DNA of 32,028 nucleotides from a virus. The DNA is taken from UHGV virus genome UHGV-0115055, one strand, 5' to 3'. Positions 3,361 through 26,866 of the stretch are shown here, in pieces. The position numbers were made by a program, and so were the translations under genes. The notes below the pieces were generated by a model. That model saw only the letters and a program-made list of their open reading frames with translations. It ran no database searches and was not told the DNA's origin. The stretch's first letter is position 1. Each line of letters starts with the position of its first letter.

Positions 3361-3632
3361 GTATTCGTATTGAAATTGGCGAACGTTATGTCGTTACCAG
3401 TGACAGCTTTCAGTTTATTCTCCACGAGAAAAAGAGAGCGGAAAGCGGTAAAAACGCCGGTCAGGAATGGCTGGCGGTGGTTGGTTATTACCCGAAATTA
3501 AGCCAGCTCGTTTCCGGCCTGATGCATCACGATATTCTGACCGGAAGCGCAAAATCTTTTGCTGATTTAAACGCGCAGGTTGAGCAACTCAGCAGGCGTT
3601 GTTCAGAGGCTTTTGGCTCACATGGACGTTAA
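3357..3632 (+). CDS. hypothetical early protein (P2 orf83 position)
   Basis: 91 aa ORF immediately upstream of A, overlapping its start. Confidence 0.6.
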   Translation: MSIRIEIGERYVVTSDSFQFILHEKKRAESGKNAGQEWLAVVGYYPKLSQLVSGLMHHDILTGSAKSFADLNAQVEQLSRRCSEAFGSHGR

Positions 3633-5907
3633 AGCCTCCGGGCGTTTTGTCCCTCCGTCAGCATTTGCCGCAGGCACCGGTAAGACGTTTACCGGTGCTT
3701 ATGCATGGAACGCGCCACGCGAGGCCGTCGGGCGCGAAAGACCCCTTACACGTGACGAGATGCGTCAGGTGCAAGGTGTTTTATCCACGATTAACCGCCT
3801 GCCTTACTTTTTGCGTTCGCTGTTTACTTCACGCTATGACTACATCCGGCGCAATAAAAGCCCGGTGCACGGGTTTTATTTCCTCACATCCACTTTTCAG
3901 CGTCGTTTATGGCCGCGCATTGAGCGCGTGAATCAGCGCCATGAAATGAACACCGACGCGTCGTTGCTGTTTCTGGCAGAGCGTGACCACTATGCGCGCC
4001 TGCCTGGAATGAATGACAAGGAGCTGAAAAAGTTTGCCGCCCGTATCTCATCGCAGCTTTTCATGATGTATGAGGAACTCTGCGATGCATGGGGTGATGC
4101 GCATGGTGAAAAAGAATCGCTGTTTACGGATGAGGCGCAGGCTCACCTCTATGGTCATGTTGCTGGCGCTGCACGTGCTTTCAATATTTCCCCGCTCTAC
4201 TGGAAAAAATACCGTAAAGGACAGATGACCACGAGGCAGGCATATTCTGCCATTGCCCGTCTGTTTAACGATGAGTGGTGGATTAGTCAGCTTAAAGGCC
4301 AGCGTATGCGCTGGCATGAGGCGTTACTGATTGCTGTCGGGGAGGTCAATAAAGACCGTTCTCCTTATGCCAGTAAACATGCCATTCGTGATGTGCGTGC
4401 GCGCCGCCAGGCAAATCTGGAATTTCTTAAATCGTGTGACCTTGAAAACAGGGAAACCGGCGAGCGCATCGACCTTATCAGTAAGGTGATGGGCAGTATT
4501 TCTAATCCTGAAATTCGCCGGATGGAGCTGATGAACACCATTGCCGGTATTGAGCGTTACGCCGCCGCAGAGGGTGATGTGGGGATGTTTATCACGCTGA
4601 CCGCGCCGTCAAAGTATCACCCGACACGTCAGGTCGGAAAAGGCGAAAGTAAAACCGTTCAGCTTAATCACGGCTGGAACGATGAGGCATTTAATCCAAA
4701 GGATGCGCAGCGTTATCTCTGCCGTATCTGGAGCCTGATGCGCACGGCATTCAAGGATAATGATTTACAGGTCTACGGTTTGCGAGTCGTCGAGCCACAC
4801 CACGACGGAACGCCGCACTGGCATATGATGCTTTTTTGTCATCCACGCCAGCGTAACCAGATTATCGAAATCATGCGTCGCTATGCGCTCAAAGAGGATG
4901 GCGACGAAAGAGGAGCCGCGCGAAACCGTTTTCAGGCAAAACACCTTAACCGGGGCGGTGCTGCGGGATATATCGCGAAATACATTTCAAAAAACATCGA
5001 CGGCTATGCACTGGATGGTCAGCTCGATAACGACACCGGCAGGCCGCTGAAAGACACTGCAGCGGCTGTTACCGCATGGGCGTCAACGTGGCGCATTCCG
5101 CAATTTAAAACAGTTGGCCTGCCGACAATGGGGGCTTACCGTGAACTACGCAAATTGCCTCGCGGCGTCAGCATTGCTGATGAGTTTGACGAGCGCGTCG
5201 AGGCTGCACGCGCCGCCGCAGACAGTGGTGATTTTGCGTTGTATATCAGCGCGCAGGGTGGGGCAAATGTCCCGCGCGATTGTCAGACTGTCAGGGTCGC
5301 CCGTAGCCCGTCGGATGACGTTAACGAGTATGAGGAAGAAGTCGAGAGAGTGGTCGGCATTTACGCGCCGCATCTCGGCGCGCGTCATATTCATATCACC
5401 AGAACGACGGACTGGCGCATTGTGCCGAAAGTTCCGGTCGTGGAGCCTTTGACTTTAAAAAGCGGCATCGCCGCGCCTCGGAGTCCTGTCAATAACTGTG
5501 GAAAGCTCACCGGTGGTGATACCTCGTTACCGGCTCCCACACCTTCTGAACACGCCGCAGCAGTGCTTAATCTGGTTGATGATGGTGTTATCGAATGGAA
5601 TGACCCGGAGGTCGTGAGGGCGCTCAGGGGGGCATTAAAACACGGCCTGAGAACATCTAATCGTCAGCAAAGAAACGGAAGCCCGTTAAAACCACATGAA
5701 ATAGCACCGTCGGCCAGACTGACCCGGTCGGAACGATTGCAAATTACCCGTATCCGCGTTGACCTCGCTCAGAACGGTATCAGGCCGCAACGATGGGAGC
5801 TTGAGGTGCTGGCGCGTGGCGCGACCGTAAATTATGACGGGAAAAAATTCACGTATCCGGTCGCTGATGAGTGGCCGGGATTCTCAACAGTAATGGCGCG
5901 GATATAA
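3622..5907 (+). CDS. A: rolling-circle replication initiation endonuclease (P2 gpA-like)
   Basis: ~761 aa from ATG at 3622 (track ORF begins at 3580 but overlaps orf83; the MDVKASGRFVPP start fits P2 A). Contains HUH-type motif (HHDGTPHWHMMLF) and catalytic-tyrosine region (GYIAKYISKN) typical of rolling-circle initiators. Confidence 0.93.
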   Translation: MDVKASGRFVPPSAFAAGTGKTFTGAYAWNAPREAVGRERPLTRDEMRQVQGVLSTINRLPYFLRSLFTSRYDYIRRNKSPVHGFYFLTSTFQRRLWPRIERVNQRHEMNTDASLLFLAERDHYARLPGMNDKELKKFAARISSQLFMMYEELCDAWGDAHGEKESLFTDEAQAHLYGHVAGAARAFNISPLYWKKYRKGQMTTRQAYSAIARLFNDEWWISQLKGQRMRWHEALLIAVGEVNKDRSPYASKHAIRDVRARRQANLEFLKSCDLENRETGERIDLISKVMGSISNPEIRRMELMNTIAGIERYAAAEGDVGMFITLTAPSKYHPTRQVGKGESKTVQLNHGWNDEAFNPKDAQRYLCRIWSLMRTAFKDNDLQVYGLRVVEPHHDGTPHWHMMLFCHPRQRNQIIEIMRRYALKEDGDERGAARNRFQAKHLNRGGAAGYIAKYISKNIDGYALDGQLDNDTGRPLKDTAAAVTAWASTWRIPQFKTVGLPTMGAYRELRKLPRGVSIADEFDERVEAARAAADSGDFALYISAQGGANVPRDCQTVRVARSPSDDVNEYEEEVERVVGIYAPHLGARHIHITRTTDWRIVPKVPVVEPLTLKSGIAAPRSPVNNCGKLTGGDTSLPAPTPSEHAAAVLNLVDDGVIEWNDPEVVRALRGALKHGLRTSNRQQRNGSPLKPHEIAPSARLTRSERLQITRIRVDLAQNGIRPQRWELEVLARGATVNYDGKKFTYPVADEWPGFSTVMARI

Positions 5908-6210
5908 TGACAAAGATTCACAAAGTAAAGCTGCACGCAAGATATTTCAACCTTGTGCTGGAGGGAAAAGAAACGCACAGAATTTAGGGGGATAGCCGTT
6001 ATCATGTGTATGAAGCACTTGAAATGTATCTGCATCACTTGGGAGTGTGTCAACGGGGAATTTCCATCTATGTGATTTTTTGAGAGCAATGCAGTGAAGA
6101 TAAAGATACTTATTATAAATCAATGTGATAGATGGTGCCTCGCAAACGTAAATGATAGTTTTGAAGCTTCAGGGCTGATGTCGTTCATAAGACTATGTTT
6201 ACGCTATCAT

Positions 6211-6241
6211 TTATGATAAAAATAATTAATTTTTATCATAA
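6211..6241. promoter_or_regulatory. 31-bp perfect palindrome (13-bp arms TTATGATAAAAAT / ATTTTTATCATAA, 5-bp spacer AATTA) immediately upstream of the island 1 nuclease-like gene; candidate operator
   Basis: Read directly from sequence; lies 17-23 bp upstream of the likely start codons (6258/6264). Confidence 0.5.
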
Positions 6242-6257
6242 AGATTCAACAGAGGAT

Positions 6258-7769
6258 ATGTTGATGAATCAACTAAAATCAATGAATATCAATAAGTTAC
6301 TTTTGGATGTTGATAACCCTCGTTTCCCGACGTCAGCAGAAAATCAGCGTGATGCTATTGCCAAGATGCTTGACATGCAGTACGACCGCATTTATCGCTT
6401 GGCTAAAGATATTGCTTCGAAAGGTTTAGATCCGTCTGAAAACATATTAGTTTATCCTAGTGAAGAGGAATCTGGCTTTTTCGTCGTTGCTGAAGGTAAT
6501 CGTCGAGTTACAGCCCTTAAACTTTTACACTCTCCTAGACTTGCACCAACAGAAAAAGCACGGAAAGCTTTTGAAAAACTTAAGATTACTCAGCTTAAAG
6601 ATATTAATGTTATAGATAACTGCGTTCTTTTTGACGATGATGAATATGAGCATTGGGTCAATTTAAAGCATACTGGTCAAAATGCTGGAGTTGGAAGAGT
6701 TGAATGGACTGCAACAGAAAAAGCACGACATCTGGCTAGGATGGGTAAGCAGTCATTTGGTAATCAAATACTTACATTTATAGAGTTCAATACTGATTTA
6801 TATAAAGAGATAATTGCTAAAAAAAGACTTTTAAAAATCACAAACATCACGCGTCTTTTTGGTGATTTAAAGGTGAGGGATTATTTTAATTTAAAAAGCA
6901 TTAATGGAGTTCTATACTCATATCAGCCTTATGAACGTTTTTGTGCACAATTAAAAAATATTTTAGATGTAATGATTGAAGAGGATGATAAAGGTAAGGC
7001 TTGTTTTACTGTTAATAGGATTCGTAGCCAAGATGACAGGGTTACATTTATTATTGAACAAAAAATAAAACCTTCAGAATCTCTTTTAGATAAGCCGTGG
7101 AGTTTACTGGAGCCTAAATCTTTTCTTACAGAGAAAAAACATGATTCTATTGACAAGAATGATGCATCTGTGAGTGTAAAGAAAGTAGGTCTTTCAGAAG
7201 GTGATGCCTTAAAGAATACAGGTGTGGATAAACAGGAAGATGATTATTCTAGACATGTAGGCACAGAAGAGAGTAAATCTAAAGTTTCGGGCACGGAACA
7301 GAATAAAAACAAGGGAAAAACTCCTCCTAAAGTAGATCGTAATGTGTTGGTGCCATCTTATGTGAAATTTAATTTTAGAGGGCATAAGAAATGCTCTAGA
7401 ATATTTAATGAGCTTAAGTCGCATCTGACATTTGATAACACCCCTAATGCTATCTCAATATTGTTGAGAATATTTATAGATCTCTCTGTAAGCACTTTTG
7501 TTGAAGAAAACAAGTTACAATTTAAGGAACCACATAGAACTCCAGGGCTTCATGATAAGGTTAAAATGTGTGCTAATTTCCTTCGGGAAAATAAAAAGAT
7601 GACGGGGAGTCAATGTACGGCTGTAATAACTTTCTCGAGCCAAATAACTAAACATGATGGTTCATTGCAGCAGTATGTACATAACCCACACTTAATTCCC
7701 TCAAAAGAGGCTGTCAACACTGAGTGGGATAACTTTGAGTTGTTATTAAGCCTTATTTGGAGTGAGTGA
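6258..7769 (+). CDS. ParB/Srx-like N-terminal domain protein (putative nuclease or NTP-dependent DNA-binding effector), cargo gene
   Basis: Track ORF 6195-7769 (524 aa); likely start at ATG 6258 or 6264 (GAGGA at 6252-6256; the palindrome would otherwise be inside the coding region). N-terminus has ParB-box-like motifs: LLLDVDNPRFP (like the ParB ...NP.QPR motif) and VVAEGNRRVTALKLL (like GxRRxxA). A K/E/S-rich low-complexity linker near 7100-7350 precedes an uncharacterised C-terminal domain. AT-rich codon usage unlike the backbone. Confidence 0.7.
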   Translation: MLMNQLKSMNINKLLLDVDNPRFPTSAENQRDAIAKMLDMQYDRIYRLAKDIASKGLDPSENILVYPSEEESGFFVVAEGNRRVTALKLLHSPRLAPTEKARKAFEKLKITQLKDINVIDNCVLFDDDEYEHWVNLKHTGQNAGVGRVEWTATEKARHLARMGKQSFGNQILTFIEFNTDLYKEIIAKKRLLKITNITRLFGDLKVRDYFNLKSINGVLYSYQPYERFCAQLKNILDVMIEEDDKGKACFTVNRIRSQDDRVTFIIEQKIKPSESLLDKPWSLLEPKSFLTEKKHDSIDKNDASVSVKKVGLSEGDALKNTGVDKQEDDYSRHVGTEESKSKVSGTEQNKNKGKTPPKVDRNVLVPSYVKFNFRGHKKCSRIFNELKSHLTFDNTPNAISILLRIFIDLSVSTFVEENKLQFKEPHRTPGLHDKVKMCANFLRENKKMTGSQCTAVITFSSQITKHDGSLQQYVHNPHLIPSKEAVNTEWDNFELLLSLIWSE

Positions 7770-7838
7770 GATTTGTCTACATCTGGACATGGATGTCCAG
7801 AAACTGATAAACTACAAAATCAGGAATGAGAGGGATTT

Positions 7839-8723
7839 ATGAAATTTTATACTCCATTAAGATACCCCGGCGGGAAAGGTAAGTTATCTTACTTTTTAAA
7901 AGATGTTATTGAAAAAAACTCGTTGAATGATGGAGCATATGCAGAACCTTACGCTGGTGGTGCAGGGGTGGCTTTAGAATTATTATTGGAAGAGTATGTC
8001 CGTAAAATCTATATAAATGATGCAGATTTTGCTGTTTATTCTTTTTGGTCATCTGTTGTTAGTGATACTGATGAGCTTTGCCGACTTATTAGCCGAGCAA
8101 AGATAGATATGGATGAATGGTCTTTTCATCGCTATGTTATTTCGAATCCTTCTGAGTTTACTAAGCTTGAGGTTGGCTTTGCTGCGTTTTTCTTAAATAG
8201 AACAAATCGTTCAGGTATTCTCAAGGCGGGGGTTATAGGCGGGAAATCACAAAATGGAAAATGGAAAATGGATGTTCGCTTTAACAGGGCGGATTTAATT
8301 TCAAGAATTGAGAAGATAGCAAATTATAATCAAAGAATAGTAGTAACTAATCTGGATGCTTTGGATTTTCTTGATGCCTTGAATTTTATGGATAATATGG
8401 GAAAGGTGGATAAAAATAAAATTCTTTTGTATTTGGATCCTCCTTACTATATTAAAGGGCAAGGGCTTTACAGGAATTTTTATGAGCATGATGACCATGT
8501 ATTGGTTATGAAGAAACTCACAGAAATTAATTTCCCAAATTGGCTTGTTTCTTATGATAACGCTAAAGAAATTAAAGATATTTATAATGGATTTCCGCAA
8601 GTTGAGTATTCATTGCAATATACAGCGCATCTCAAAAAATCTGGAGAGGAAGTGATGATTTTTTCTCCTGAAATAATTATTCCTAATACCCTGAAAGGGG
8701 TCTCAATGCCAACTTGCGCCTGA
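7839..8723 (+). CDS. D12-class (Dam-like) N6-adenine DNA methyltransferase, cargo gene
   Basis: 294 aa; N-terminal YPGGKGKL (Dam family GGK motif), AdoMet-binding motif I AEPYAGGAGV, catalytic motif IV LDPPYY. RBS GAGAGG upstream. AT-rich. Confidence 0.88.
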   Translation: MKFYTPLRYPGGKGKLSYFLKDVIEKNSLNDGAYAEPYAGGAGVALELLLEEYVRKIYINDADFAVYSFWSSVVSDTDELCRLISRAKIDMDEWSFHRYVISNPSEFTKLEVGFAAFFLNRTNRSGILKAGVIGGKSQNGKWKMDVRFNRADLISRIEKIANYNQRIVVTNLDALDFLDALNFMDNMGKVDKNKILLYLDPPYYIKGQGLYRNFYEHDDHVLVMKKLTEINFPNWLVSYDNAKEIKDIYNGFPQVEYSLQYTAHLKKSGEEVMIFSPEIIIPNTLKGVSMPTCA

Positions 8724-8870
8724 TTTTACTTATTTTTTGTCAGTAAGTAATTAGTTTGGTGCATTTATTTGCATTCATTTTTAAATGCCAGTTCTGGCAT
8801 CTAACATCAGTGCTGGCGCATTCTAACCATTACTGCTGCACTGCATTTAAAGCCCTGCATGAAGCGGGCG

Positions 8871-8889
8871 GGCGAGGCGGGGAAAGCAC
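8871..8889. other. cos: cos site, candidate 19-nt cohesive end GGCGAGGCGGGGAAAGCAC
   Basis: GC-rich 19-mer located where P2 cos lies (between accessory region and Q); sequence matches my recollection of the P2 cohesive end, not verified against a reference. Confidence 0.6.
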
Positions 8890-9029
8890 TGCGCGCTGGC
8901 GGTGGTGCTGATTTTATTTTTTCAGCGTCTGAGCGCGTCGTGATGGCGTTTAGATTGTTCGCCGGGGCGTTGGTGTGTCTGCGGGCTGTTTTGTGCGGTG
9001 GTGAGCGTGTGAGGGCGTGATGGCGGGTT

Positions 9030-9054
9030 GTAAAAAAGCCGCCCGCAGGCGGCG
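9030..9054 (-). terminator. rho-independent terminator downstream of Q (minus strand)
   Basis: Minus-strand hairpin GCCGCCTGCGGGCGGC followed by a TTTTTT run (plus strand shows AAAAAA 9032-9037 then stem 9038-9053) right after the Q stop codon. Confidence 0.55.
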
Positions 9055-9058
9055 ATGT

Positions 9059-10093
9059 TCAGCCGTTGTCAGTGTCCAGTGAGTAGTTTTTAAAGCGGAT
9101 GACCTCCTGACCGAGCCAGCCGTTTATTTCCCGAATCCTGTCCTGTAACGGGATTAGCTCATTGCGGACAAAGACCTTTGCCACTTTCTCAATATCGCCC
9201 AGTGACCCGACGTTCTCCGGCTTGCCACCCATCAACTGAAAGGGGATGCGGTGTGCGTCCAGCAGGTCAGCGGCGCTGGCTTTTTTGATATTAAAAAAAT
9301 CGTCCTTCGTCGCCACTTCACTGAGCGGGATAATTTTAATGCCGTCGGCTTTCCCCTGCGGGGCATAGAGAAACAGGTTTTTAAAGTTGTTGCGGCCTTT
9401 CGACTTCACCATGTTTTCGCGAAGCATTTCGATATCGTTGCGATCCTGCACGGCATCGGTAACGTACATGATGTATCCGGCATGTGCGCCGTTTTCGTAA
9501 TACTTGCGGCGGAACAGCGTGGCCGACTCATTCAGCCAGGCAGAGTTAAGGGCGCTGAGATATTCCGGCAGGCCGTACAGCTCCTGATTAATATCCGGCT
9601 CCAGCAGGTGAAACACGGAGCCGGGCGTGAAAGGTGTCGGCTCGTTGAAGGACGGCACCCACCAGTAAACATCCTCCTCCACGCCACGACGGGTATATTT
9701 GGCCGGTGAGGTTTCCAGTCTGATGACCTTACCGGTGGTGCTGTAACGCTTTTCCAGAAACGCATTACCGAACACCAGAAAATCCAGCACAAAGCGGCTG
9801 AAATCCTGCTGGGAAAGCCACGGATGCGGGATAAACGTTGAGGCCAGAATATTACGTTTGACGTAAATCGGTGAGCTGTGATGCACGGCAGCACGCAGGC
9901 TTTTTGCCAGACCGGTAAAGCTGACCGGTGGCTCATACCATCTGCCGTTACTGATGCATTCGACGTAATCCAGAATGTCACGGCGGTCGAGTACCGGCAC
10001 CGGCTCGCCAAAGGTGAATGCCTCCATTTTCGGGGCGCTGGCGGTCATTGTTTTTGCCGCTGGTCGCGGTGTTTTCCCTTTTTTCTTGCTCAT
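9059..10093 (-). CDS. Q: portal (capsid vertex) protein
   Basis: 344 aa as in P2 Q; adjacent to cos and divergent from the O-N-M-L capsid operon. Confidence 0.93.
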   Translation of the reverse strand: MSKKKGKTPRPAAKTMTASAPKMEAFTFGEPVPVLDRRDILDYVECISNGRWYEPPVSFTGLAKSLRAAVHHSSPIYVKRNILASTFIPHPWLSQQDFSRFVLDFLVFGNAFLEKRYSTTGKVIRLETSPAKYTRRGVEEDVYWWVPSFNEPTPFTPGSVFHLLEPDINQELYGLPEYLSALNSAWLNESATLFRRKYYENGAHAGYIMYVTDAVQDRNDIEMLRENMVKSKGRNNFKNLFLYAPQGKADGIKIIPLSEVATKDDFFNIKKASAADLLDAHRIPFQLMGGKPENVGSLGDIEKVAKVFVRNELIPLQDRIREINGWLGQEVIRFKNYSLDTDNG

Positions 10094-20725: not shown

Positions 20726-23347
20726 ATGAGCACGAAATTTAAAACCGTTATCACTACTGCCGGAGCCGCAAAGCTGGCAGCCGCCACTGTCCCCGGCGGG
20801 AAAAAAGTAACTCTGTCTGCAATGGCCGTGGGTGACGGTAATGGCAAATTGCCGGTGCCGGATGCTGGTCAGACGAAACTGGTGCATGAGGTCTGGCGTC
20901 ACGCCCTGAATAAAGTCAGCGTGGATAATAAGAATAAAAACTATATCGTGGCTGAACTGGTTGTACCGCCCGAAGTGGGCGGCTTCTGGATGCGTGAGCT
21001 TGGTTTGTATGACGATGCCGGAACACTGATTGCGGTCGCCAACATGGCGGAAAGCTATAAGCCAGAACTGGCTGAAGGCTCCGGACGTGCGCAGACCTGC
21101 CGCATGGTTGTTATTGTCAGCAACGTGTCGTGCGTTGAGCTGAGTATTGATGCCAGCACAGTGATGGCGACGCAGGATTACGTCGATGACAAAATCGCAG
21201 AGCATGAGCAGTCCCGCCGCCATCCTGACGCCACGCTGACAGAAAAAGGTTTTACTCAGTTAAGCAGTGCAACAAACAGCACCAGTGAAAAGCAGGCTGC
21301 AACGCCAAAGGCAGTAAAAGCAGCCTATGACAATGCTGAGAAACGTCTGCAGAAAGACCAGAACGGTGGCGATATTCCAGATAAGGGCGCTTTTCTGGAC
21401 AATATTGGCGTTACCAGCCTGACGTTTATGAAACACAATGGAATGATTCCAACCACTGACAATCTTGACTCCTATGGCCCAGAAGAAAAATATCTTGGAA
21501 CGTGGTCATGTCCGTCACAATCCACTGCAAAACCAGAGTCTGGTTACCCTGAAGATAAAGGCAATGGGGTTCTGGAAGTATTCAATGCTGGTCGCTTTCA
21601 CTGCACACAACGCTACACCACCCGAACCGGTAATATTTACATTCGGATGCTTGATGCAGAATGGAACCCAGCCAGTCCAACATGGAGTGCATGGAGAGTT
21701 ATTACAAGCGGGACTCGACCATTAAGCACGTCAATTGACCTGAATTCTTTAGGTGGTGCGGAACACCTGGGAATATGGCGCAATAGCAGTACATCAATAG
21801 CCTCATTTGACCGTCATTTCCCGGAGGAAGGGAGTTTTGGGCAGGGTATTCTGGAAGTCTTTGAAGGCGGTCTGTATGGGAGGATGCAACGTTACACCAC
21901 CCGTAGTGGGACTATGTACATTCGCGGACTGACTGCCTCATGGGATGCAGAAAATCCACAATGGGAGGACTGGATTGCTGTTGGGTATCAGTCCACGGGA
22001 TGGACTTATTCAGGGGATCTTGATGACCTTTTAAAGCCTGGTATTTATAGCGTTACGAAACAGGCCACAAATGCACCTGTCACCGACTCTAAAGATCTTG
22101 CTGTTGGCTCAATAGTTGAAGTGAAAAAACGTTGTGATATTGAATCGTATATCCAGACATACACGACTGTTTCAGCAACGGATGCCTATAAAAACCGGAC
22201 ATTTCAGCGAACCCGCGCCAGCGGTGAAACTGACTGGGGGGAATGGGCGGAAGTATACAACTCAAAATCATTACTCACTAAATTAGGTGTCGGCGGTGTT
22301 ACCGACAGGTTATCCAGTCTGGACTGGCAGACCTACGACTTTATACCGGGCAGCATGATAACTGTCAGGCTTTCAGATATGACCAATATTCCCGATGGGA
22401 TGGAATGGGGCGTCATTGATACTAACCTGATAAATATCACTGTTGGCCCCAGTGAAGGCGGAGGTGTCGCCCGTTCAATGCATGTATGGCGCAGCACTTC
22501 AAACAAAACCAACTATCGTTTTTTTACAGTCCGCTTATATGGCAATCCTGGGGAGCGTAGCTTCAATATTCGTCGGCTACCAATTATCGACGAAGCCCAG
22601 ACATGGGAGGCAAAACAGACATTCAGTGCAGGCCTTTCTGGTGAACTGTCCGGCAATGCGGCTACAGCAACAAAGCTGAAAACGGCAAGGACAATTAACG
22701 GCGTAAAATTTGACGGCTCGGCAAATATTGAAGCGTTTCCGCCTGGTGTTCCGCTGCCGTGGCCATCAGATACACCACCTGCAGGCTATGCAATCATGCA
22801 GGGGCAGACGTTTGATAAGGCAGCATATCCGAAACTGGCTATAGCCTATCCTTCTGGTGTTATTCCTGATATGCGCGGCTGGACAATCAAGGGCAAACCC
22901 GCCAGTGGGCGTGCTGTATTGTCACAGGAACAGGACGGGATTAAATCGCATACTCACAGTGCCAGTGCGTCAAATACGGATTTGGGAACGAAAACAACCA
23001 GTTCGTTTGATTACGGCACGAAGACGGTCAGTACGTTTAATCATGGCACAAAATCAACGAACAATACGGGCAATCATACGCACACTGTCGGTGGTGTTTA
23101 TGGCGGCGACTCTGTCGGTGGAAAACAGCGTGTACAGGCTTCAGGAAACAATCAGGTGTCCAGCACCGCCGGAGCGCACGCCCATACGGTGGATATTGGT
23201 CAGCATAACCACACTGTAGGTATTGGTGCCCATGCACACACTGTGGCCCTGGGTGCGCACGGACACACCATCACGGTAAATGCTACGGGTAATACCGAAA
23301 ACACCGTCAAAAACATCGCATTTAACTATATTGTGAGGCTTGCATAA
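20726..23347 (+). CDS. H: tail fibre protein H (mosaic: conserved N-terminal anchor, divergent receptor-binding distal part)
   Basis: 873 aa, longer than P2 H (669 aa). N-terminal ~160 aa are P2-H-like; the remainder has an internal duplicated ~50 aa domain and a C-terminal array of H-x-H-T repeats; GC content drops in the distal part. Confidence 0.9.
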
Positions 23348-23925
23348 TGGCTTTCAGAATGAGTGCAGAAGCACAAACTATCCGCGTTTTCAATTTACTT
23401 GATGGAACCAATGAATTTATTGGTGAAAGTGACGCATATATTCCGCCGCATACAGGTCTGCCTGCAAACAGTACAGATATTGCACCGCCTGATATTCCTG
23501 CTGGTTATGCAGCCGTTTTCAATGCAGATGAAATGAAATGGGAACTGATGGAAGACCATCGCGGAAAGACCGTCTATGAAACGAAAACGGGAGCAGCCAT
23601 TTATATTTCTGAACTTGGCGTATTACCTCCAGACGTGACAGCCATTTCCCCGGATGGGGATTATCAGAAATGGAACGGCAATGCGTGGGTGAATGATGAG
23701 AATGCAGAGCGTGATGCGCTTGTCAGAGCGGCTGACTCTCAGAAGAAAGAGCTGATTGCATATGCAGGTGAAATTATTGCCACTCTGCAGGATGCTGTCG
23801 ATTTAGATATGGCTACCGAGGAAGAAAAGTTAAGCCTGACACACTGGAAAAAATACCGTGTGCTACTGAATCGCGTTCAGCCGGAAAATGCCCCGGATAT
23901 TGAATGGCCGAAAATGCCGCAATAA
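23347..23925 (+). CDS. G: tail fibre assembly chaperone G
   Basis: 192 aa directly downstream of H with ATAATG overlap; position of P2 G. Confidence 0.85.
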
Positions 23926-23959: not shown

Positions 23960-24001
23960 TGGCACAGAGTAAAACCTAATCTGACAGTCCACTCTGTGCC
24001 A
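23960..24001. repeat. 11-bp perfect inverted repeat (TGGCACAGAGT ... ACTCTGTGCCA) with 20-nt loop immediately after gene G
   Basis: Read from sequence; possible stem-loop at the end of the H-G transcript or a boundary element of the cargo island. Confidence 0.4.
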
Positions 24002-24492
24002 GCAGCAATTGCGTGGCCAAAGGAAACACTGCCAGCACAATCAGGTATTGATATGTCGATGTAGTCCTGAATGGCTGGCAACTCACCTAACCTAATGAGC
24101 TCCCGTTCAACCGGAACATAAGGTCAATTCTGTTGTATGATTTTTCCCTTTTTGAAAGAATAATAGCGATAAATGACGAATTTTTGGAACCCTGCTTGTT
24201 GCTGAAGATACGTTGTCACAATGGAAGAACGTGACTTACATCGAAGTGATGGGAGTATCCGTCAAGATCTAATACACGAAAATAGAAGTGAAAAGGTACG
24301 CTGCGAGGGCGCTCGCCTGTCCGCTCTGTCTGCGAAGAAATAATTTATTTTAGGCCACCCAAGCGGCTTGTTTAAGATTAGTACTCTTATCTAGAAAACT
24401 CGTAACTGACTTGAATGTATGGTAACATGATAATAACAAGGTTCGAACATCCGCCAATGCAATATACTTAGAACATATAAATTGAATCTGAC

Positions 24493-25374
24493 ATGGATAA
24501 AAATAAATTGGTTAAATTTTCACTAGTCGAAAACGCCTTGGATTCTATTGAGCTAGGTTTGGAGTATTTTTACGAAGCAAAAAAAGAATTCACGCCACGT
24601 AAATATAAACAATGCCTAATTAATATGTTTCATGGCTCGGAGTTAATCCTGAAAGAAATATTGAGTAGGATAAATATTATACTCATATTCGACAAAAACT
24701 CTTTATTTAAAATTTGCAAAGATCCTTTAAGTCCTACTGGGGATGAGTTGTATAAATTAAAATCAATAGATATTAATAGCTTATGCGATGAGGTTGTGAA
24801 GCATTATCCGGACGAGTTTAAAGGAAAGCTTAATATTGTCAAGGGCCTAGCTAGAGAAAGAAACAAGATACAGCATTTTGCAATCGAAATATCACCAGAG
24901 ATATTATCAAGGTTACTCTCAAGTCTTTACATTGATGTTTTTAAGCCATCCTTTAAAATAATTTTATCTGAGCTTGATTATGTTAATCAATACAATTCGC
25001 TGATTGAAAGGCAGATTATAGGTGCTGAAAAGACATTTCTTAAAATACAAGGTGATACTGATAACTATTTAGCTCTTTGTCCAAAGTGCGAGAACCATTC
25101 TCACTTTATATTGTACAAAGGTACGGGTTACCCTGTTGAGACCTATTGTATTTGCTGTGATTATAAAAATACAGATATTGACATATCAGATTATCTGGTA
25201 TGTCCTGAATGCGGATTCCCGTCATTGATATTTGATGAAAAAAATAATGCAGGAGTCTGCCTCAACGAGAAGTGTTACTATGGAATACAAGGTGGATTCG
25301 TAGAAATGGAACCATGTGAAAATTGTGATGGCTTTATTATTGAAGGTTCATGCCCAGAATGTGATACGGATTGA
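24493..25374 (+). CDS. cargo protein: putative HEPN-like domain fused to three C-terminal Cys4 zinc-ribbon units; candidate single-gene anti-phage (abortive infection) effector
   Basis: 293 aa in a strongly AT-rich island at the P2 Z/fun position. R-N-x3-H motif (ARERNKIQHF) typical of HEPN RNases in a predicted helical N-terminal region; C-terminus has paired Cys motifs CPKC..CICC, CPEC..CLNEKC, CENC..CPEC. Possible extended -10 promoter (TGaTAATAA around 24428-24436) upstream. Confidence 0.7.
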   Translation: MDKNKLVKFSLVENALDSIELGLEYFYEAKKEFTPRKYKQCLINMFHGSELILKEILSRINIILIFDKNSLFKICKDPLSPTGDELYKLKSIDINSLCDEVVKHYPDEFKGKLNIVKGLARERNKIQHFAIEISPEILSRLLSSLYIDVFKPSFKIILSELDYVNQYNSLIERQIIGAEKTFLKIQGDTDNYLALCPKCENHSHFILYKGTGYPVETYCICCDYKNTDIDISDYLVCPECGFPSLIFDEKNNAGVCLNEKCYYGIQGGFVEMEPCENCDGFIIEGSCPECDTD

Positions 25375-25552
25375 GATTACTCGACGATTGGTGCAACTGC
25401 ATGCTTGCAAAACTCTATGGTGCTAACGGAGTCAATTACTGAATTGTTGTTACCCATTGACGGATAGATTTCGGTTGCTTAACTGTGAATGGAGTAGCAT
25501 GACAGAGTTTTTTACCAGTCCGATTAGCTTCTATCAAATAGCAGTTCGGACA

Positions 25553-25675: not shown

Positions 25676-26866
25676 ATGAGTGACTATCATCACGGCGTGC
25701 AGGTGCTGGAGATTAACGACGGCACCCGCGTCATTTCCACCGTATCAACCGCCATTGTCGGCATGGTCTGCACAGCCAGCGATGCGGATGCGGAAACCTT
25801 CCCCCTCAATAAACCGGTGCTGATTACCAATGTGCAGAGCGCAATTGCAAAGGCTGGTAAAAAAGGCACGCTGGCGGCATCGTTGCAGGCCATCGCCGAC
25901 CAGTCAAAACCGGTCACCGTTGTCGTGCGTGTGGAAGACGGCACCGGCGACGACGAGGAAACGAAACTCGCGCAGACCGTTTCCAATATCATCGGCACCA
26001 CCGACGAAAACGGTCAGTACACCGGACTGAAAGCCCTGCTGGCGGCGGAGTCGGTAACCGGTGTTAAACCGCGTATTCTCGGTGTGCCGGGGCTGGATAC
26101 CAAAGAGGTGGCTGTTGCACTGGCATCCGTCTGTCAGAAGCTGCGCGCTTTCGGGTATATCAGCGCATGGGGCTGTAAAACCATTTCCGAGGTGAAAGCC
26201 TACCGTCAGAATTTCAGCCAGCGTGAGCTGATGGTCATCTGGCCGGATTTCCTCGCATGGGATACGGTCACCAGTACCACCGCCACCGCGTATGCCACCG
26301 CCCGTGCGCTGGGTCTGCGTGCCAGAATCGACCAAGAGCAGGGCTGGCATAAAACGCTGTCCAACGTCGGGGTAAACGGTGTTACCGGCATCAGTGCGTC
26401 CGTATTCTGGGATTTGCAGGAGTCCAGCACCGATGCTGACCTGCTGAACGAGTCAGGTGTCACAACGCTGATTCGCCGTGACGGTTTCCGCTTCTGGGGT
26501 AACCGTACCTGCTCTGATGACCCGCTGTTCCTCTTTGAAAACTACACCCGCACCGCGCAGGTGCTGGCCGACACGATGGCTGAGGCGCACATGTGGGCGG
26601 TGGACAAGCCCATCACCGCAACGCTGATTCGCGACATCGTTGACGGCATCAATGCCAAATTCCGAGAGCTGAAAACAAACGGCTATATCGTGGATGCGAC
26701 CTGCTGGTTCAGTGAAGAATCCAACGATGCGGAAACCCTCAAGGCCGGAAAACTGTATATCGACTACGACTATACCCCGGTGCCTCCTCTTGAAAACCTG
26801 ACCCTGCGCCAGCGTATTACTGATAAATACCTGGCAAATCTGGTCACCTCGGTTAACAGCAATTAA
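25676..26866 (+). CDS. FI: contractile tail sheath protein
   Basis: 396 aa, P2 FI size and position. Confidence 0.93.
   Translation: MSDYHHGVQVLEINDGTRVISTVSTAIVGMVCTASDADAETFPLNKPVLITNVQSAIAKAGKKGTLAASLQAIADQSKPVTVVVRVEDGTGDDEETKLAQTVSNIIGTTDENGQYTGLKALLAAESVTGVKPRILGVPGLDTKEVAVALASVCQKLRAFGYISAWGCKTISEVKAYRQNFSQRELMVIWPDFLAWDTVTSTTATAYATARALGLRARIDQEQGWHKTLSNVGVNGVTGISASVFWDLQESSTDADLLNESGVTTLIRRDGFRFWGNRTCSDDPLFLFENYTRTAQVLADTMAEAHMWAVDKPITATLIRDIVDGINAKFRELKTNGYIVDATCWFSEESNDAETLKAGKLYIDYDYTPVPPLENLTLRQRITDKYLANLVTSVNSN

What the first reader, a model, noticed from the sequence alone, without database searches (positions are those of the whole stretch)
7839..8723. Dam-family methyltransferase encoded as prophage cargo
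The motifs clearly indicate an N6-adenine methylase of the Dam/D12 class, but the gene is strongly AT-rich and sits in a horizontally acquired island, so its specificity need not be GATC. If the host is already Dam-positive, a second Dam-like enzyme implies a different target motif or a role tied to the neighbouring ParB-like gene.
Basis: partly seen in the sequence, partly recalled or inferred. Interest (0 to 1): 0.55.

Follow-up and report, generated by a model that had tools for sequence, protein, structure and literature searches.

The report
Methylase half of PD-λ-5 phage defence
The gene is a real DNA methyltransferase, but it is the second gene of PD-λ-5, a two-gene anti-phage system already found by experiment in E. 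coli and carried in the usual cargo slot of P2-like prophages, so it is a known thing whose target sequence and mechanism are still unsolved.

Summary
ORF 7839..8723 (+, 294 aa) is an intact D12-class (alpha-group) DNA methyltransferase with a PYAGGAG motif I and DPPY motif IV. It is 35% GC against 53% in its flanks. It sits in the cargo slot of an E. coli P2-like prophage, between replication gene A and the cos site/portal gene Q.

It is not an orphan Dam. With the co-oriented upstream gene (6264..7769, 501 aa) it matches the PADLOC models PD-Lambda-5_B (E 1e-121) and PD-Lambda-5_A (E 1e-167). PD-λ-5 was found by functional selection in ECOR7 (Vassallo et al. 2022), in this same P2 slot, and gave broad anti-phage protection.

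The MTase fails the Dam equivalog cut-off (47 vs 114.85 bits). Its closest solved relative is M.CbeI, a DPPY enzyme that makes N4-methylcytosine at GGCC, so "N6-adenine" is likely but not proven.

Of 80 distant relatives, 60 (one of them only a cut fragment) have a ParB-like gene directly upstream. Another 13 have an OLD-type ATPase instead, which fits a self-marking module paired with an effector.

The partner models as a KorB/ParB-like N-terminal half plus a HEPN-fold C-terminal domain that lacks the canonical Rx4-6H motif.

Verdict: already known. The target motif and mechanism remain open. Interest is low to moderate.

The parts
7839..8723 (+). PD-λ-5 B: D12-class (alpha-group) DNA methyltransferase, 294 aa; motif I at nt 7944-7967, DPPY at nt 8436-8447
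   Evidence: Pfam PF02086 at E 3.6e-16. PADLOC PD-Lambda-5_B at E 1.4e-121 over the full length, and MTase_II at E 3.3e-103. The AlphaFold model is nearest to M.CbeI 7m6b (E 1.9e-11), then E. coli Dam and DpnM. RefSeq names it WP_000675356.1 'DNA adenine methylase'.
6264..7769 (+). PD-λ-5 A: 501-aa partner. It has a ParB/Srx-KorB-like N-terminal half (invariant EGNRR), a disordered acidic linker (about residues 291-353) and a HEPN-fold C-terminal domain (invariant R402, Y471, H473, N474; no canonical Rx4-6H).
7783..7813 (+). Spacer between A and B holding a promoter-like site for the methylase gene (-35 TGGACA 7784-7789, 18-nt spacer, TG-extended -10 TAAACT 7808-7813), overlapped by the perfect palindrome CTGGACAT-GG-ATGTCCAG (7783-7800)
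   Evidence: The same arrangement, TGG(A/C)CA-N17/18-TAnnnT placed just after the A stop codon, occurs in 8 of 22 spacers of at least 42 nt from distant loci, against a mean of 0.14 (maximum 2) in 500 shuffles. The palindrome is kept with one mismatch in Salmonella. Its function is inferred, not shown.
5908..9058 (.). AT-rich cargo island (37% GC) in P2 'hotspot 1', between replication gene A and portal gene Q
   Evidence: Composition. Only 22 of the 2151 genomes matching the query (which includes conserved P2 flanks) hold at least 80% of the island. The same slot is described for PD-λ-5, tin and old in PMC9519451.
3580..5907 (+). P2 gene A-type replication endonuclease (left flank of the slot)
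   Evidence: RefSeq 'replication endonuclease' in the 99.6% identical locus L001. Pfam Phage_GPA on the equivalent genes.
8871..8889 (+). GGCGAGGCGGGGAAAGCAC, the P2-type cohesive-end (cos) sequence, at the right edge of the slot
   Evidence: The sequence was read. Its identity with the P2 cos site rests on my own recollection and was not tested here.
9059..10093 (-). P2 Q-type portal gene (right flank of the slot)
   Evidence: ORF. RefSeq 'phage portal protein'. Pfam Phage_portal.

Best explanation
The gene encodes the methyltransferase (B) subunit of the PD-λ-5 anti-phage system, carried as a two-gene cassette in the variable defence slot of an E. coli P2-like prophage.

Most likely working model. 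The steps below are marked as shown or inferred.
1. The enzyme is an active AdoMet-dependent DNA amino-methyltransferase. This is inferred from intact, invariant motifs and from the fold.
2. It constitutively marks the lysogen's own DNA at a short sequence that is not the Dam site GATC. This is inferred from failing the Dam equivalog test and from the published use of a host with the mrr region deleted. The mark is probably m6A, but m4C is not excluded.
3. The mark keeps the upstream protein A from acting on self DNA. Protein A has a ParB/KorB-like nucleotide-switch and DNA-binding half joined by a flexible linker to a HEPN-fold domain. This step is inferred from strict gene linkage and from the alternative pairing of the same methylase clade with OLD-type nucleases.
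4. Unmarked incoming phage DNA is recognised by A, which then blocks infection. It may cut DNA through the ParB-like domain, act as an RNase-type abortive effector through the HEPN-like domain, or both. This is the 'compact RM+Abi' idea of the discoverers. Only the anti-phage phenotype is shown, and only by others.
5. In this lineage the methylase appears to have its own promoter, directly after the stop codon of gene A. That would let modification be expressed independently of the effector (inferred).
For: Identity. PADLOC gives full-length matches to PD-Lambda-5_B (E 1.4e-121) and PD-Lambda-5_A (E 9.5e-168). The cassette length (2460 nt here, 2461 nt for ECOR7 in Table S2), the domain labels ('ParB/HEPN, methyltransferase') and the P2 slot all agree with Vassallo et al. 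2022. That paper reports protection (EOP or plaque size) against all but one of 10 phages tested, strongest against the T-even phages.

Not Dam. TIGR00571 scores 47 bits against a cut-off of 114.85. Identity to K-12 Dam is 23% over 202 aa, with K129, S125 and R124 at the positions of Dam R124, N120 and Y119. A sequence profile of the family finds only M.CbeI in the PDB, not Dam, T4 Dam or DpnM.

Fold. The nearest structures are M.CbeI, then Dam, then DpnM.

Linkage. Of 80 loci encoding relatives of 46-59% identity from many phyla, 58 have an A-like ORF directly upstream on the same strand. L072 has a divergent one, and L058 has a cut upstream ORF that looks A-like by eye only. Another 13 have an AAA_15/AAA_21 ATPase of the OLD/ATPase-Toprim kind instead. 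Four lack upstream DNA. Only 3 of the 76 loci with upstream DNA lack a recognisable partner.

Mobility. Closer relatives sit in the same slot of P2-like prophages in Salmonella, Serratia and Aeromonas, and also in a lambdoid prophage (Proteus) and a Mu-like prophage (Shewanella).

Partner anatomy.

Promoter.

Activity in vivo. The system was cloned in MG1655 deleted for the region containing mrr.
Against: No methylome, nuclease or RNase data for PD-λ-5 turned up in the literature library searched. Steps 2-4 are therefore inference.

The paper does not say why the mrr-region deletion was needed.

My co-occurrence test was uninformative. Among the 22 island carriers, 2 show a second match to the island-plus-mrr query. 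I presume that match is mrr but did not verify it. The background rate is 17.5% of all genomes, so 3.9 were expected.

The screen discarded clones that showed high-frequency epigenetic escape plaques and carried an identifiable RM system, and the PD-λ-5 clone was kept. This may mean it does not behave like a classical RM system.

Strong protection against T-even phages, whose DNA resists most restriction enzymes, also does not fit simple restriction.

The canonical HEPN Rx4-6H motif is missing in this clade, so RNase activity is doubtful.

ParB/Srx domains are more often nucleotide switches than nucleases.

The closest characterised relative makes m4C, not m6A (PMC3425538).
Confidence: 0.8

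Rival explanations
1. Orphan phage Dam-like methylase. The enzyme works alone. It might protect the phage's own DNA from host restriction, or act as an epigenetic regulator, possibly at GATC. The ParB-like neighbour would then be functionally unrelated.
For: It belongs to the D12 class, and RefSeq names it 'DNA adenine methylase'. Orphan Dam-like methylases are common in temperate phages (general knowledge). PADLOC orphan-methylase models also give weaker matches (oMTase, E 2e-21).
Against: It is below the Dam equivalog cut-off. In 73 of the 76 loci with upstream DNA, the upstream gene on the same strand is a ParB-like protein or an OLD-type ATPase, across phyla. The pair travels as a unit between P2-like, lambdoid and Mu-like prophages. 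The cloned two-gene cassette gives anti-phage defence (PMC9519451). The prophage holds only 22 GATC sites against 124 expected, which leaves little for a GATC enzyme to act on.
Confidence: 0.05
2. Same defence role, different chemistry. The enzyme is an N4-cytosine methyltransferase like M.CbeI and DmtB, not an adenine methylase. The self-mark would then be m4C.
For: M.CbeI (7m6b) is the only PDB sequence found by phmmer or by the family profile (E 2e-12 and 1e-20), and it is the best structural match. It has FxGxG and DPPY motifs and was annotated as a D12 adenine methylase, yet it makes m4C at GGCC (PMC3425538). The deleted 'region containing mrr' may also include mcrBC (adjacent in K-12). 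From my own knowledge, McrBC attacks m4C-containing DNA.
Against: Identity to M.CbeI is only about 24%, no closer than Dam in pairwise identity. DPPY is overwhelmingly an adenine-methylase motif. The authors name mrr, classically the restriction system for methylated adenine. Strong protection against T-even phages, whose cytosines are all glucosyl-hydroxymethylated, is easier to explain if self and non-self are told apart at adenines (inference).
Confidence: 0.15
3. Not restriction-like at all. The methylase might mark the invader, with A attacking marked DNA (Pgl-like reverse logic). Alternatively, B might simply be the antidote of a toxin-antitoxin-type abortive module, in which A is a toxin released on infection.
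For: The HEPN fold is typical of abortive-infection and toxin proteins. The clone was not discarded as RM-like in the original screen. Defence is strongest against T-even phages. Anantharaman et al. 2013 proposed that HEPN domains linked to R-M genes act as a second, suicidal line of defence.
Against: The need for a host lacking a methylation-dependent restriction system implies that the host chromosome is methylated in uninfected cells (inference). The same methylase clade is alternatively paired with OLD-type nucleases, as expected of a self-marking module. No sign of protein-protein antidote features was sought or found.
Confidence: 0.12

Closest known systems
PD-λ-5 (Vassallo et al. 2022, Nat Microbiol; ECOR7, proteins RCQ13837.1/RCQ13838.1; PADLOC/DefenseFinder 'PD-Lambda-5')
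   Same: The gene order is the same, with the ParB/HEPN gene first and the D12 methylase second. The cassette length, HMM families and P2 slot between the replication endonuclease and the portal also match. This locus is a copy of that system.
   Different: Nothing substantive was found. I could not align directly to the ECOR7 sequences, because they are not retrievable with these tools.
E. coli Dam / T4 Dam / DpnM (GATC-specific D12 methylases)
   Same: The alpha-group motif order and fold are shared, and so is the Pfam family.
   Different: Identity is 23%. The protein scores below the NCBIfam Dam cut-off, and the Dam DNA-contact residues are not conserved. It is genetically linked to an effector gene rather than being solitary.
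M.CbeI / DmtB (alpha-class DPPY methylases that make m4C at GGCC)
   Same: It is the closest solved and characterised relative by both sequence and structure. M.CbeI is likewise part of a restriction-modification pair.
   Different: Identity is only about 24%. The partner of M.CbeI is a HaeIII-like restriction enzyme, not a ParB-HEPN protein. The base and sequence specificity of the present enzyme are unknown.
ParB-HEPN and ParB + HEPN + methylase neighbourhoods predicted by Anantharaman et al. 2013 (Saro_3948 and MAE_28990 families)
   Same: The domain combination is the same, and so is the proposed 'restriction plus HEPN suicide' logic.
   Different: Those were computational predictions. Here the HEPN-like domain has lost the canonical Rx4-6H motif that some distant family members keep (RTFHSYVH).
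Other P2 hotspot-1 cargo (old, tin; systems of Rousset et al. 2022)
   Same: The insertion slot is the same, and all are presumed to benefit the lysogen by excluding other phages.
   Different: The proteins are unrelated. Rousset et al. do not mention this pair.

Membership tests
PD-λ-5 defence system | Two adjacent co-oriented genes: a ParB/HEPN-type protein followed by a D12 methyltransferase | tested here: met
   ORFs 6264..7769 and 7839..8723, both on the + strand, with a 69-nt spacer.
PD-λ-5 defence system | Both proteins match the PD-Lambda-5_A and PD-Lambda-5_B profile models | tested here: met
   A: E 9.5e-168, covering 1-465 of 466 model positions. B: E 1.4e-121, covering 1-280 of 291.
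PD-λ-5 defence system | Confers anti-phage protection when expressed | not testable with these tools
   Reported for the ECOR7 copy: all but one of 10 phages were affected, in a host with the mrr region deleted (PMC9519451).
D12-class / alpha-group DNA amino-methyltransferases (Pfam PF02086) | Pfam score above the gathering threshold | tested here: met
   60.1 bits against a cut-off of 22, E 3.6e-16.
D12-class / alpha-group DNA amino-methyltransferases (Pfam PF02086) | AdoMet-binding motif I lies N-terminal to catalytic (D/N)PP(Y/F) motif IV, with the recognition region between them | tested here: met
   EPYAGGAG at residues 36-43 and DPPY at 200-203. Both are invariant in alignment A1.
D12-class / alpha-group DNA amino-methyltransferases (Pfam PF02086) | Dam-like fold | tested here: met
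   Model pTM 0.77. Foldseek gives M.CbeI at 1.9e-11, Dam at about 1e-10 and DpnM at 1.9e-9.
D12-class / alpha-group DNA amino-methyltransferases (Pfam PF02086) | The product is N6-methyladenine | not testable with these tools
   M.CbeI shows that the same motifs can give m4C.
Dam orthologues (GATC-specific; NCBIfam TIGR00571) | Score at or above the curated cut-off | tested here: not met
   47 bits against 114.85.
Dam orthologues (GATC-specific; NCBIfam TIGR00571) | Conservation of the Dam residues that read GATC (R124, N120, Y119, L122; roles from my own knowledge of the Dam-DNA structures) | tested here: not met
   The pairwise alignment puts K129, S125, R124 and I127 at those positions. At 23% identity the alignment is only approximate.
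Classical Type II restriction-modification system | Methylase adjacent to a recognisable restriction endonuclease (PD-(D/E)xK, HNH, GIY-YIG or PLD) | tested here: not met
   The partner has no Pfam or NCBIfam match. Its fold is ParB/KorB-like plus HEPN.
Classical Type II restriction-modification system | Phage escapes by acquiring host methylation | not testable with these tools
   The PD-λ-5 clone was not among those discarded for high-frequency escape plaques plus an identifiable RM system. This is only indirect.
ParB/Srx (ParB-KorB CTP-switch) superfamily, for partner A | ParB/Srx fold with the conserved GxxR arginine patch | tested here: met
ParB/Srx (ParB-KorB CTP-switch) superfamily, for partner A | CTP (or other NTP) binding, or nuclease activity | not testable with these tools
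   No data.
HEPN superfamily, for the C-terminal domain of partner A | Four-helix up-down HEPN fold | tested here: met
HEPN superfamily, for the C-terminal domain of partner A | Catalytic Rx4-6H motif | tested here: not met
   It is absent at the canonical helix. Only H473 and N474 are kept. Distant homologues do have RTFHSYVH.

The most novel reading that the evidence does not exclude
PD-λ-5 may not be a compact classical R-M system. It may instead be a new mechanistic type. A KorB/ParB-like nucleotide-switch clamp would read the methylation state laid down by a D12 methylase of unknown, possibly non-adenine, specificity, and would then drive a degenerate HEPN-fold effector. The same methylase clade would serve as a portable 'self-mark' module that is swapped between ParB-HEPN effectors and OLD-type ATPase-nuclease effectors.
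Probability: 0.3. Interest if true: 0.6.

Novelty: already known. Interest (0 to 1): 0.25.

Why it matters
As a finding it mainly adds annotation. The 'DNA adenine methylase' and 'hypothetical protein' in this P2-like prophage are the two genes of a validated anti-phage system, present in 22 of 5426 complete E. coli genomes. Close relatives are very common in Salmonella.

What is still worth knowing is mechanistic, and three questions stand out. Which base and motif does the enzyme mark? How does a ParB/KorB-like protein tell marked DNA from unmarked DNA? Why does the system work so well against T-even phages, which evade most restriction enzymes?

There is also a practical point. A prophage methylase that may make DNA sensitive to Mrr-type restriction would affect the cloning and transfer of DNA from carrier strains.

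Tried and rejected
1. Reading the recurrent (C)TGGCCA motif in the A-B spacers of distant loci as the methylation target (it contains GGCC, the M.CbeI site). Rejected. Its fixed 17-nt distance to a TG-TAnnnT box shows it is most simply a -35 hexamer.

2. Testing the Mrr inference by co-occurrence, using a chimeric island + K-12 mrr query. Among the 22 carriers, 2 gave a second match, against a 17.5% background. This is not significant, and I did not verify that the second match is mrr.

3. Looking for a published target motif or mechanism. I searched for PD-λ-5, the protein accession numbers, 'P2-like prophage' with methylome, and ParB with HEPN and methyltransferase. Nothing went beyond surveys and the original paper.

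4. Looking for the island in phage isolate genomes and in plasmids. Only short weak matches came up.

5. Trying to see the ECOR7 contig itself by exact-protein look-up. The exact protein is listed in 2453 blocks of the collection, always in the same context, but ECOR7 was not among the 10 places shown.

6. Pfam scans of the partner and its homologues. Only sub-threshold hints appeared (DUF5677, DUF4145, Csm6 HEPN). The fold search was needed to support the HEPN assignment.

Full report
**Observation.** The ORF is at exactly 7839..8723 (+), 294 aa.
- It matches Pfam PF02086 (D12-class N6-adenine DNA methyltransferase) over residues 9-255 at E 3.6e-16, well above the gathering score.
- The AdoMet-binding motif I (EPYAGGAG, residues 36-43) precedes the catalytic DPPY (residues 200-203). 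This is the alpha-group order. Both motifs are invariant in 17 homologues of 56-88% identity.
- The gene is 35% GC and its upstream neighbour is 35%. The flanking phage genes are 53-54% GC.

**Setting.** The surroundings are a P2-like prophage of E. coli.
- A GPA-type replication endonuclease lies at 3580..5907. The AT-rich island spans 5908-9058. The sequence GGCGAGGCGGGGAAAGCAC at 8871-8889 is, by my recollection, the P2 cos site. The portal and terminase genes follow on the minus strand.
- 2151 of 5426 complete E. coli genomes match the query, which includes conserved P2 flanks, but only 22 hold the island. It is therefore cargo in a variable slot.

**What it is.** Scanning both island ORFs against PADLOC gives full-length matches to PD-Lambda-5_B (methylase, E 1.4e-121) and PD-Lambda-5_A (upstream ORF, E 9.5e-168). 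PD-λ-5 comes from the functional selection of Vassallo et al. 2022 (PMC9519451).
- It was found in ECOR7 and is listed as 'ParB/HEPN, methyltransferase'. The cassette is 2461 nt there and 2460 nt here (6264..8723).
- It sits between the P2 replication endonuclease and the portal, the slot that holds tin and old in P2.
[quoted passage not shown] - Their HHsearch table gives ParBc at 96% probability for residues 6-89 of A, only faint HEPN-type hits for A, and MethyltransfD12 at 99.9% for B.

Later papers in the library only list the system as HEPN-containing or RM-related. They report neither a mechanism nor a target motif. The locus is thus a copy of a known, validated system.

**Is it Dam?** No.
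- The NCBIfam Dam model scores 47 bits against a cut-off of 114.85.
- Against K-12 Dam, identity is 23% over 202 residues. The positions of Dam R124, N120 and Y119 hold K, S and R. That these are the GATC-reading residues is my own knowledge.
- phmmer and a family profile against all PDB sequences find only 7M6B, not Dam, T4 Dam or DpnM.
- 7M6B is M.CbeI of Caldicellulosiruptor bescii. It was annotated as a D12 adenine methylase and has FxGxG and DPPY motifs, yet it makes N4-methylcytosine at GGCC, as does DmtB of Anabaena.
- An AlphaFold model of the present enzyme (pTM 0.77) is closest to M.CbeI (E 1.9e-11, 24% identity), then E. coli Dam (about 1e-10, 15-18%), then DpnM.
- So the fold and family are secure. 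'N6-adenine' is likely but not proven, and the target sequence cannot be read from the sequence.
- I take the mrr-deleted host as showing that the enzyme methylates the chromosome in a non-Dam pattern. The paper does not say this, and the deleted region may include mcrBC, which lies next to mrr.
- A co-occurrence test with a chimeric query was uninformative. Among the 22 carriers, 2 gave a second, presumed mrr, match against a 17.5% background.

**Linkage.** A scan of species-representative genomes gave 589 relatives. I examined the best 80 (46-59% identity), which come from Proteobacteria, Bacteroidota, Firmicutes, Actinobacteria, Leptospira and an archaeal MAG.
- 58 have an A-like ORF directly upstream on the same strand.
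- One more (L072) has a divergent A confirmed by PADLOC. Another (L058) has a cut upstream ORF that looks A-like by eye only.
- 13 have a 540-590-aa AAA_15/AAA_21 ATPase instead. Two representatives that I scanned match ATPase-Toprim, GajA, AriA and PtuA models best, which makes them OLD-type.
- Four lack upstream DNA. Only three have no recognisable partner.
- Closer relatives occupy the same slot in P2-like prophages of Salmonella (88% identity, very common), Serratia and Aeromonas. They also occur in a lambdoid prophage of Proteus and a Mu-like prophage of Shewanella.
- The exact E. coli protein is listed in 2453 blocks of the assembly collection. All ten places shown have the same context.

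A methylase that always travels with a nuclease-type partner, and whose partner can be swapped, behaves as the self-marking half of a restriction-like module.

**The partner.** Alignment of 39 homologues shows these features:
- an invariant NPRF...EGNRR region (the ParB arginine patch);
- a conserved W..LKHTGQN.G.GR..W block;
- a variable acidic linker;
- a C-terminal domain with invariant R402, Y471, H473 and N474.

The AlphaFold model (pLDDT 77.5) has two folded parts, residues 1-290 and 355-501, joined by a disordered linker.
- Foldseek aligns the N-terminal half over 210-310 columns to C-terminally truncated KorB and to ParB-CTPγS structures at probability about 1.0. This covers the ParB N-domain plus its DNA-binding domain.
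- The canonical HEPN Rx4-6H is absent at the expected helix in this clade. Some distant homologues keep it as RTFHSYVH, ending at the invariant histidine.

Whether A cuts DNA, cuts RNA, or acts as a nucleotide-gated sensor is therefore open.

**Expression.** The 69-nt spacer between A and B carries a promoter-like site.
- The site is TGGACA (7784-7789), an 18-nt spacer, then TG-extended TAAACT (7808-7813). It is overlapped by the perfect palindrome CTGGACAT-GG-ATGTCCAG (7783-7800).
- The same layout, right after the A stop codon, occurs in 8 of 22 long spacers from distant loci, against a mean of 0.14 in shuffles. Several lineages therefore probably give the methylase its own promoter.
- Many other lineages have spacers of 0-5 nt.

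**Best explanation and rivals.**
- I am close to certain (about 0.95) that this is the methylase subunit of PD-λ-5.
- I give roughly 0.55-0.6 to the restriction-like model, in which the mark on self DNA restrains the ParB-HEPN effector and unmarked phage DNA triggers it.
- Points against a purely classical RM reading are: the clone was not discarded as RM-like in the original screen; the strongest effect is on T-even phages; and the partner's domains are unusual.
- The rivals are an orphan Dam-like methylase (about 0.05), the same role with m4C chemistry (about 0.15, not exclusive), and reverse or toxin-antitoxin-like logic (about 0.12).

**Novelty and score.** The finding is already known. 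The pair, however, has a name, a phenotype and detection models. What remains open is the target motif and the mechanism, which the experiments under next steps would settle. Interest 0.25.

Noticed in passing
window 24493..25374 (+), within the AT-rich stretch of about 24000-25500: There is a second AT-rich cargo gene (293 aa, with C-terminal Cys-rich repeats) between the tail-fibre assembly gene (23347..23925) and the tail sheath gene (25676..26866). This is the second P2 defence hotspot, the Z/fun position. It matches the PADLOC candidate system PDC-S64 (E 2.6e-22).
   Followed up: partly
whole window, 1-32028: GATC is strongly avoided across the prophage: 22 sites against 124 expected from a Markov model (observed/expected 0.18). 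It is by far the most depleted 4-base palindrome. GGCC comes next at 0.63.
   Followed up: partly
window about 5907-5988: RefSeq annotates a frameshifted, truncated DUF3850-domain pseudogene directly after gene A in the 99.6% identical locus L001 (L001 6008..6089). It is probably a remnant of earlier cargo in the same slot.
   Followed up: no
loci L016, L020, L021, L027, L044, L046, L056, L060, L064, L065, L070, L076, L079, immediately upstream of the methylase match: In these 13 loci (Neisseria, Acinetobacter, Haemophilus, Cellvibrio, Rheinheimera and others) the PD-λ-5-type methylase is paired with a 540-590-aa AAA_15/AAA_21 ATPase instead of the ParB-HEPN gene. Two representatives that I scanned best match OLD-type ATPase-Toprim/GajA/AriA models. 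I did not check whether PADLOC recognises this methylase + OLD-like pair as a system.
   Followed up: partly
window 7783-7800; L083 about 3945-3962: The perfect 8+8 palindrome CTGGACAT-GG-ATGTCCAG overlaps the -35 box of the putative methylase promoter. Salmonella keeps it with one mismatch, and Serratia keeps the core ACATGGATGT. It may be an operator, for the methylase or for the DNA-binding half of A.
   Followed up: partly
distant PD-λ-5 A homologues P0221, P0226, P0232, P0237 compared with window 6264..7769: The distant homologues keep an Rx6H motif (RTFHSYVH) ending at the invariant histidine of the HEPN-fold domain. The E. coli clade has GSLQQYVH at the same place, so the canonical arginine has been lost.
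   Followed up: partly
RefSeq records NZ_CP095856.1, NZ_CM130729.1, NZ_CP191562.1, NZ_CP062824.1, NZ_CP075716.1 and others: In 9 of the 22 carrier genomes the island lies at record positions 2642/2643-5101/5102. Those 'complete chromosome' records therefore start at or near the start of the P2 replication gene A. This is probably an artefact of automatic start-fixing that mistakes the phage replication gene for a chromosomal start gene.
   Followed up: no
L086 5226..5821 (Serratia): In the Serratia P2-like prophage the same slot holds PD-λ-5 plus a HicA/HicB toxin-antitoxin pair between the methylase and the portal gene. This shows cargo stacking in the hotspot.
   Followed up: no
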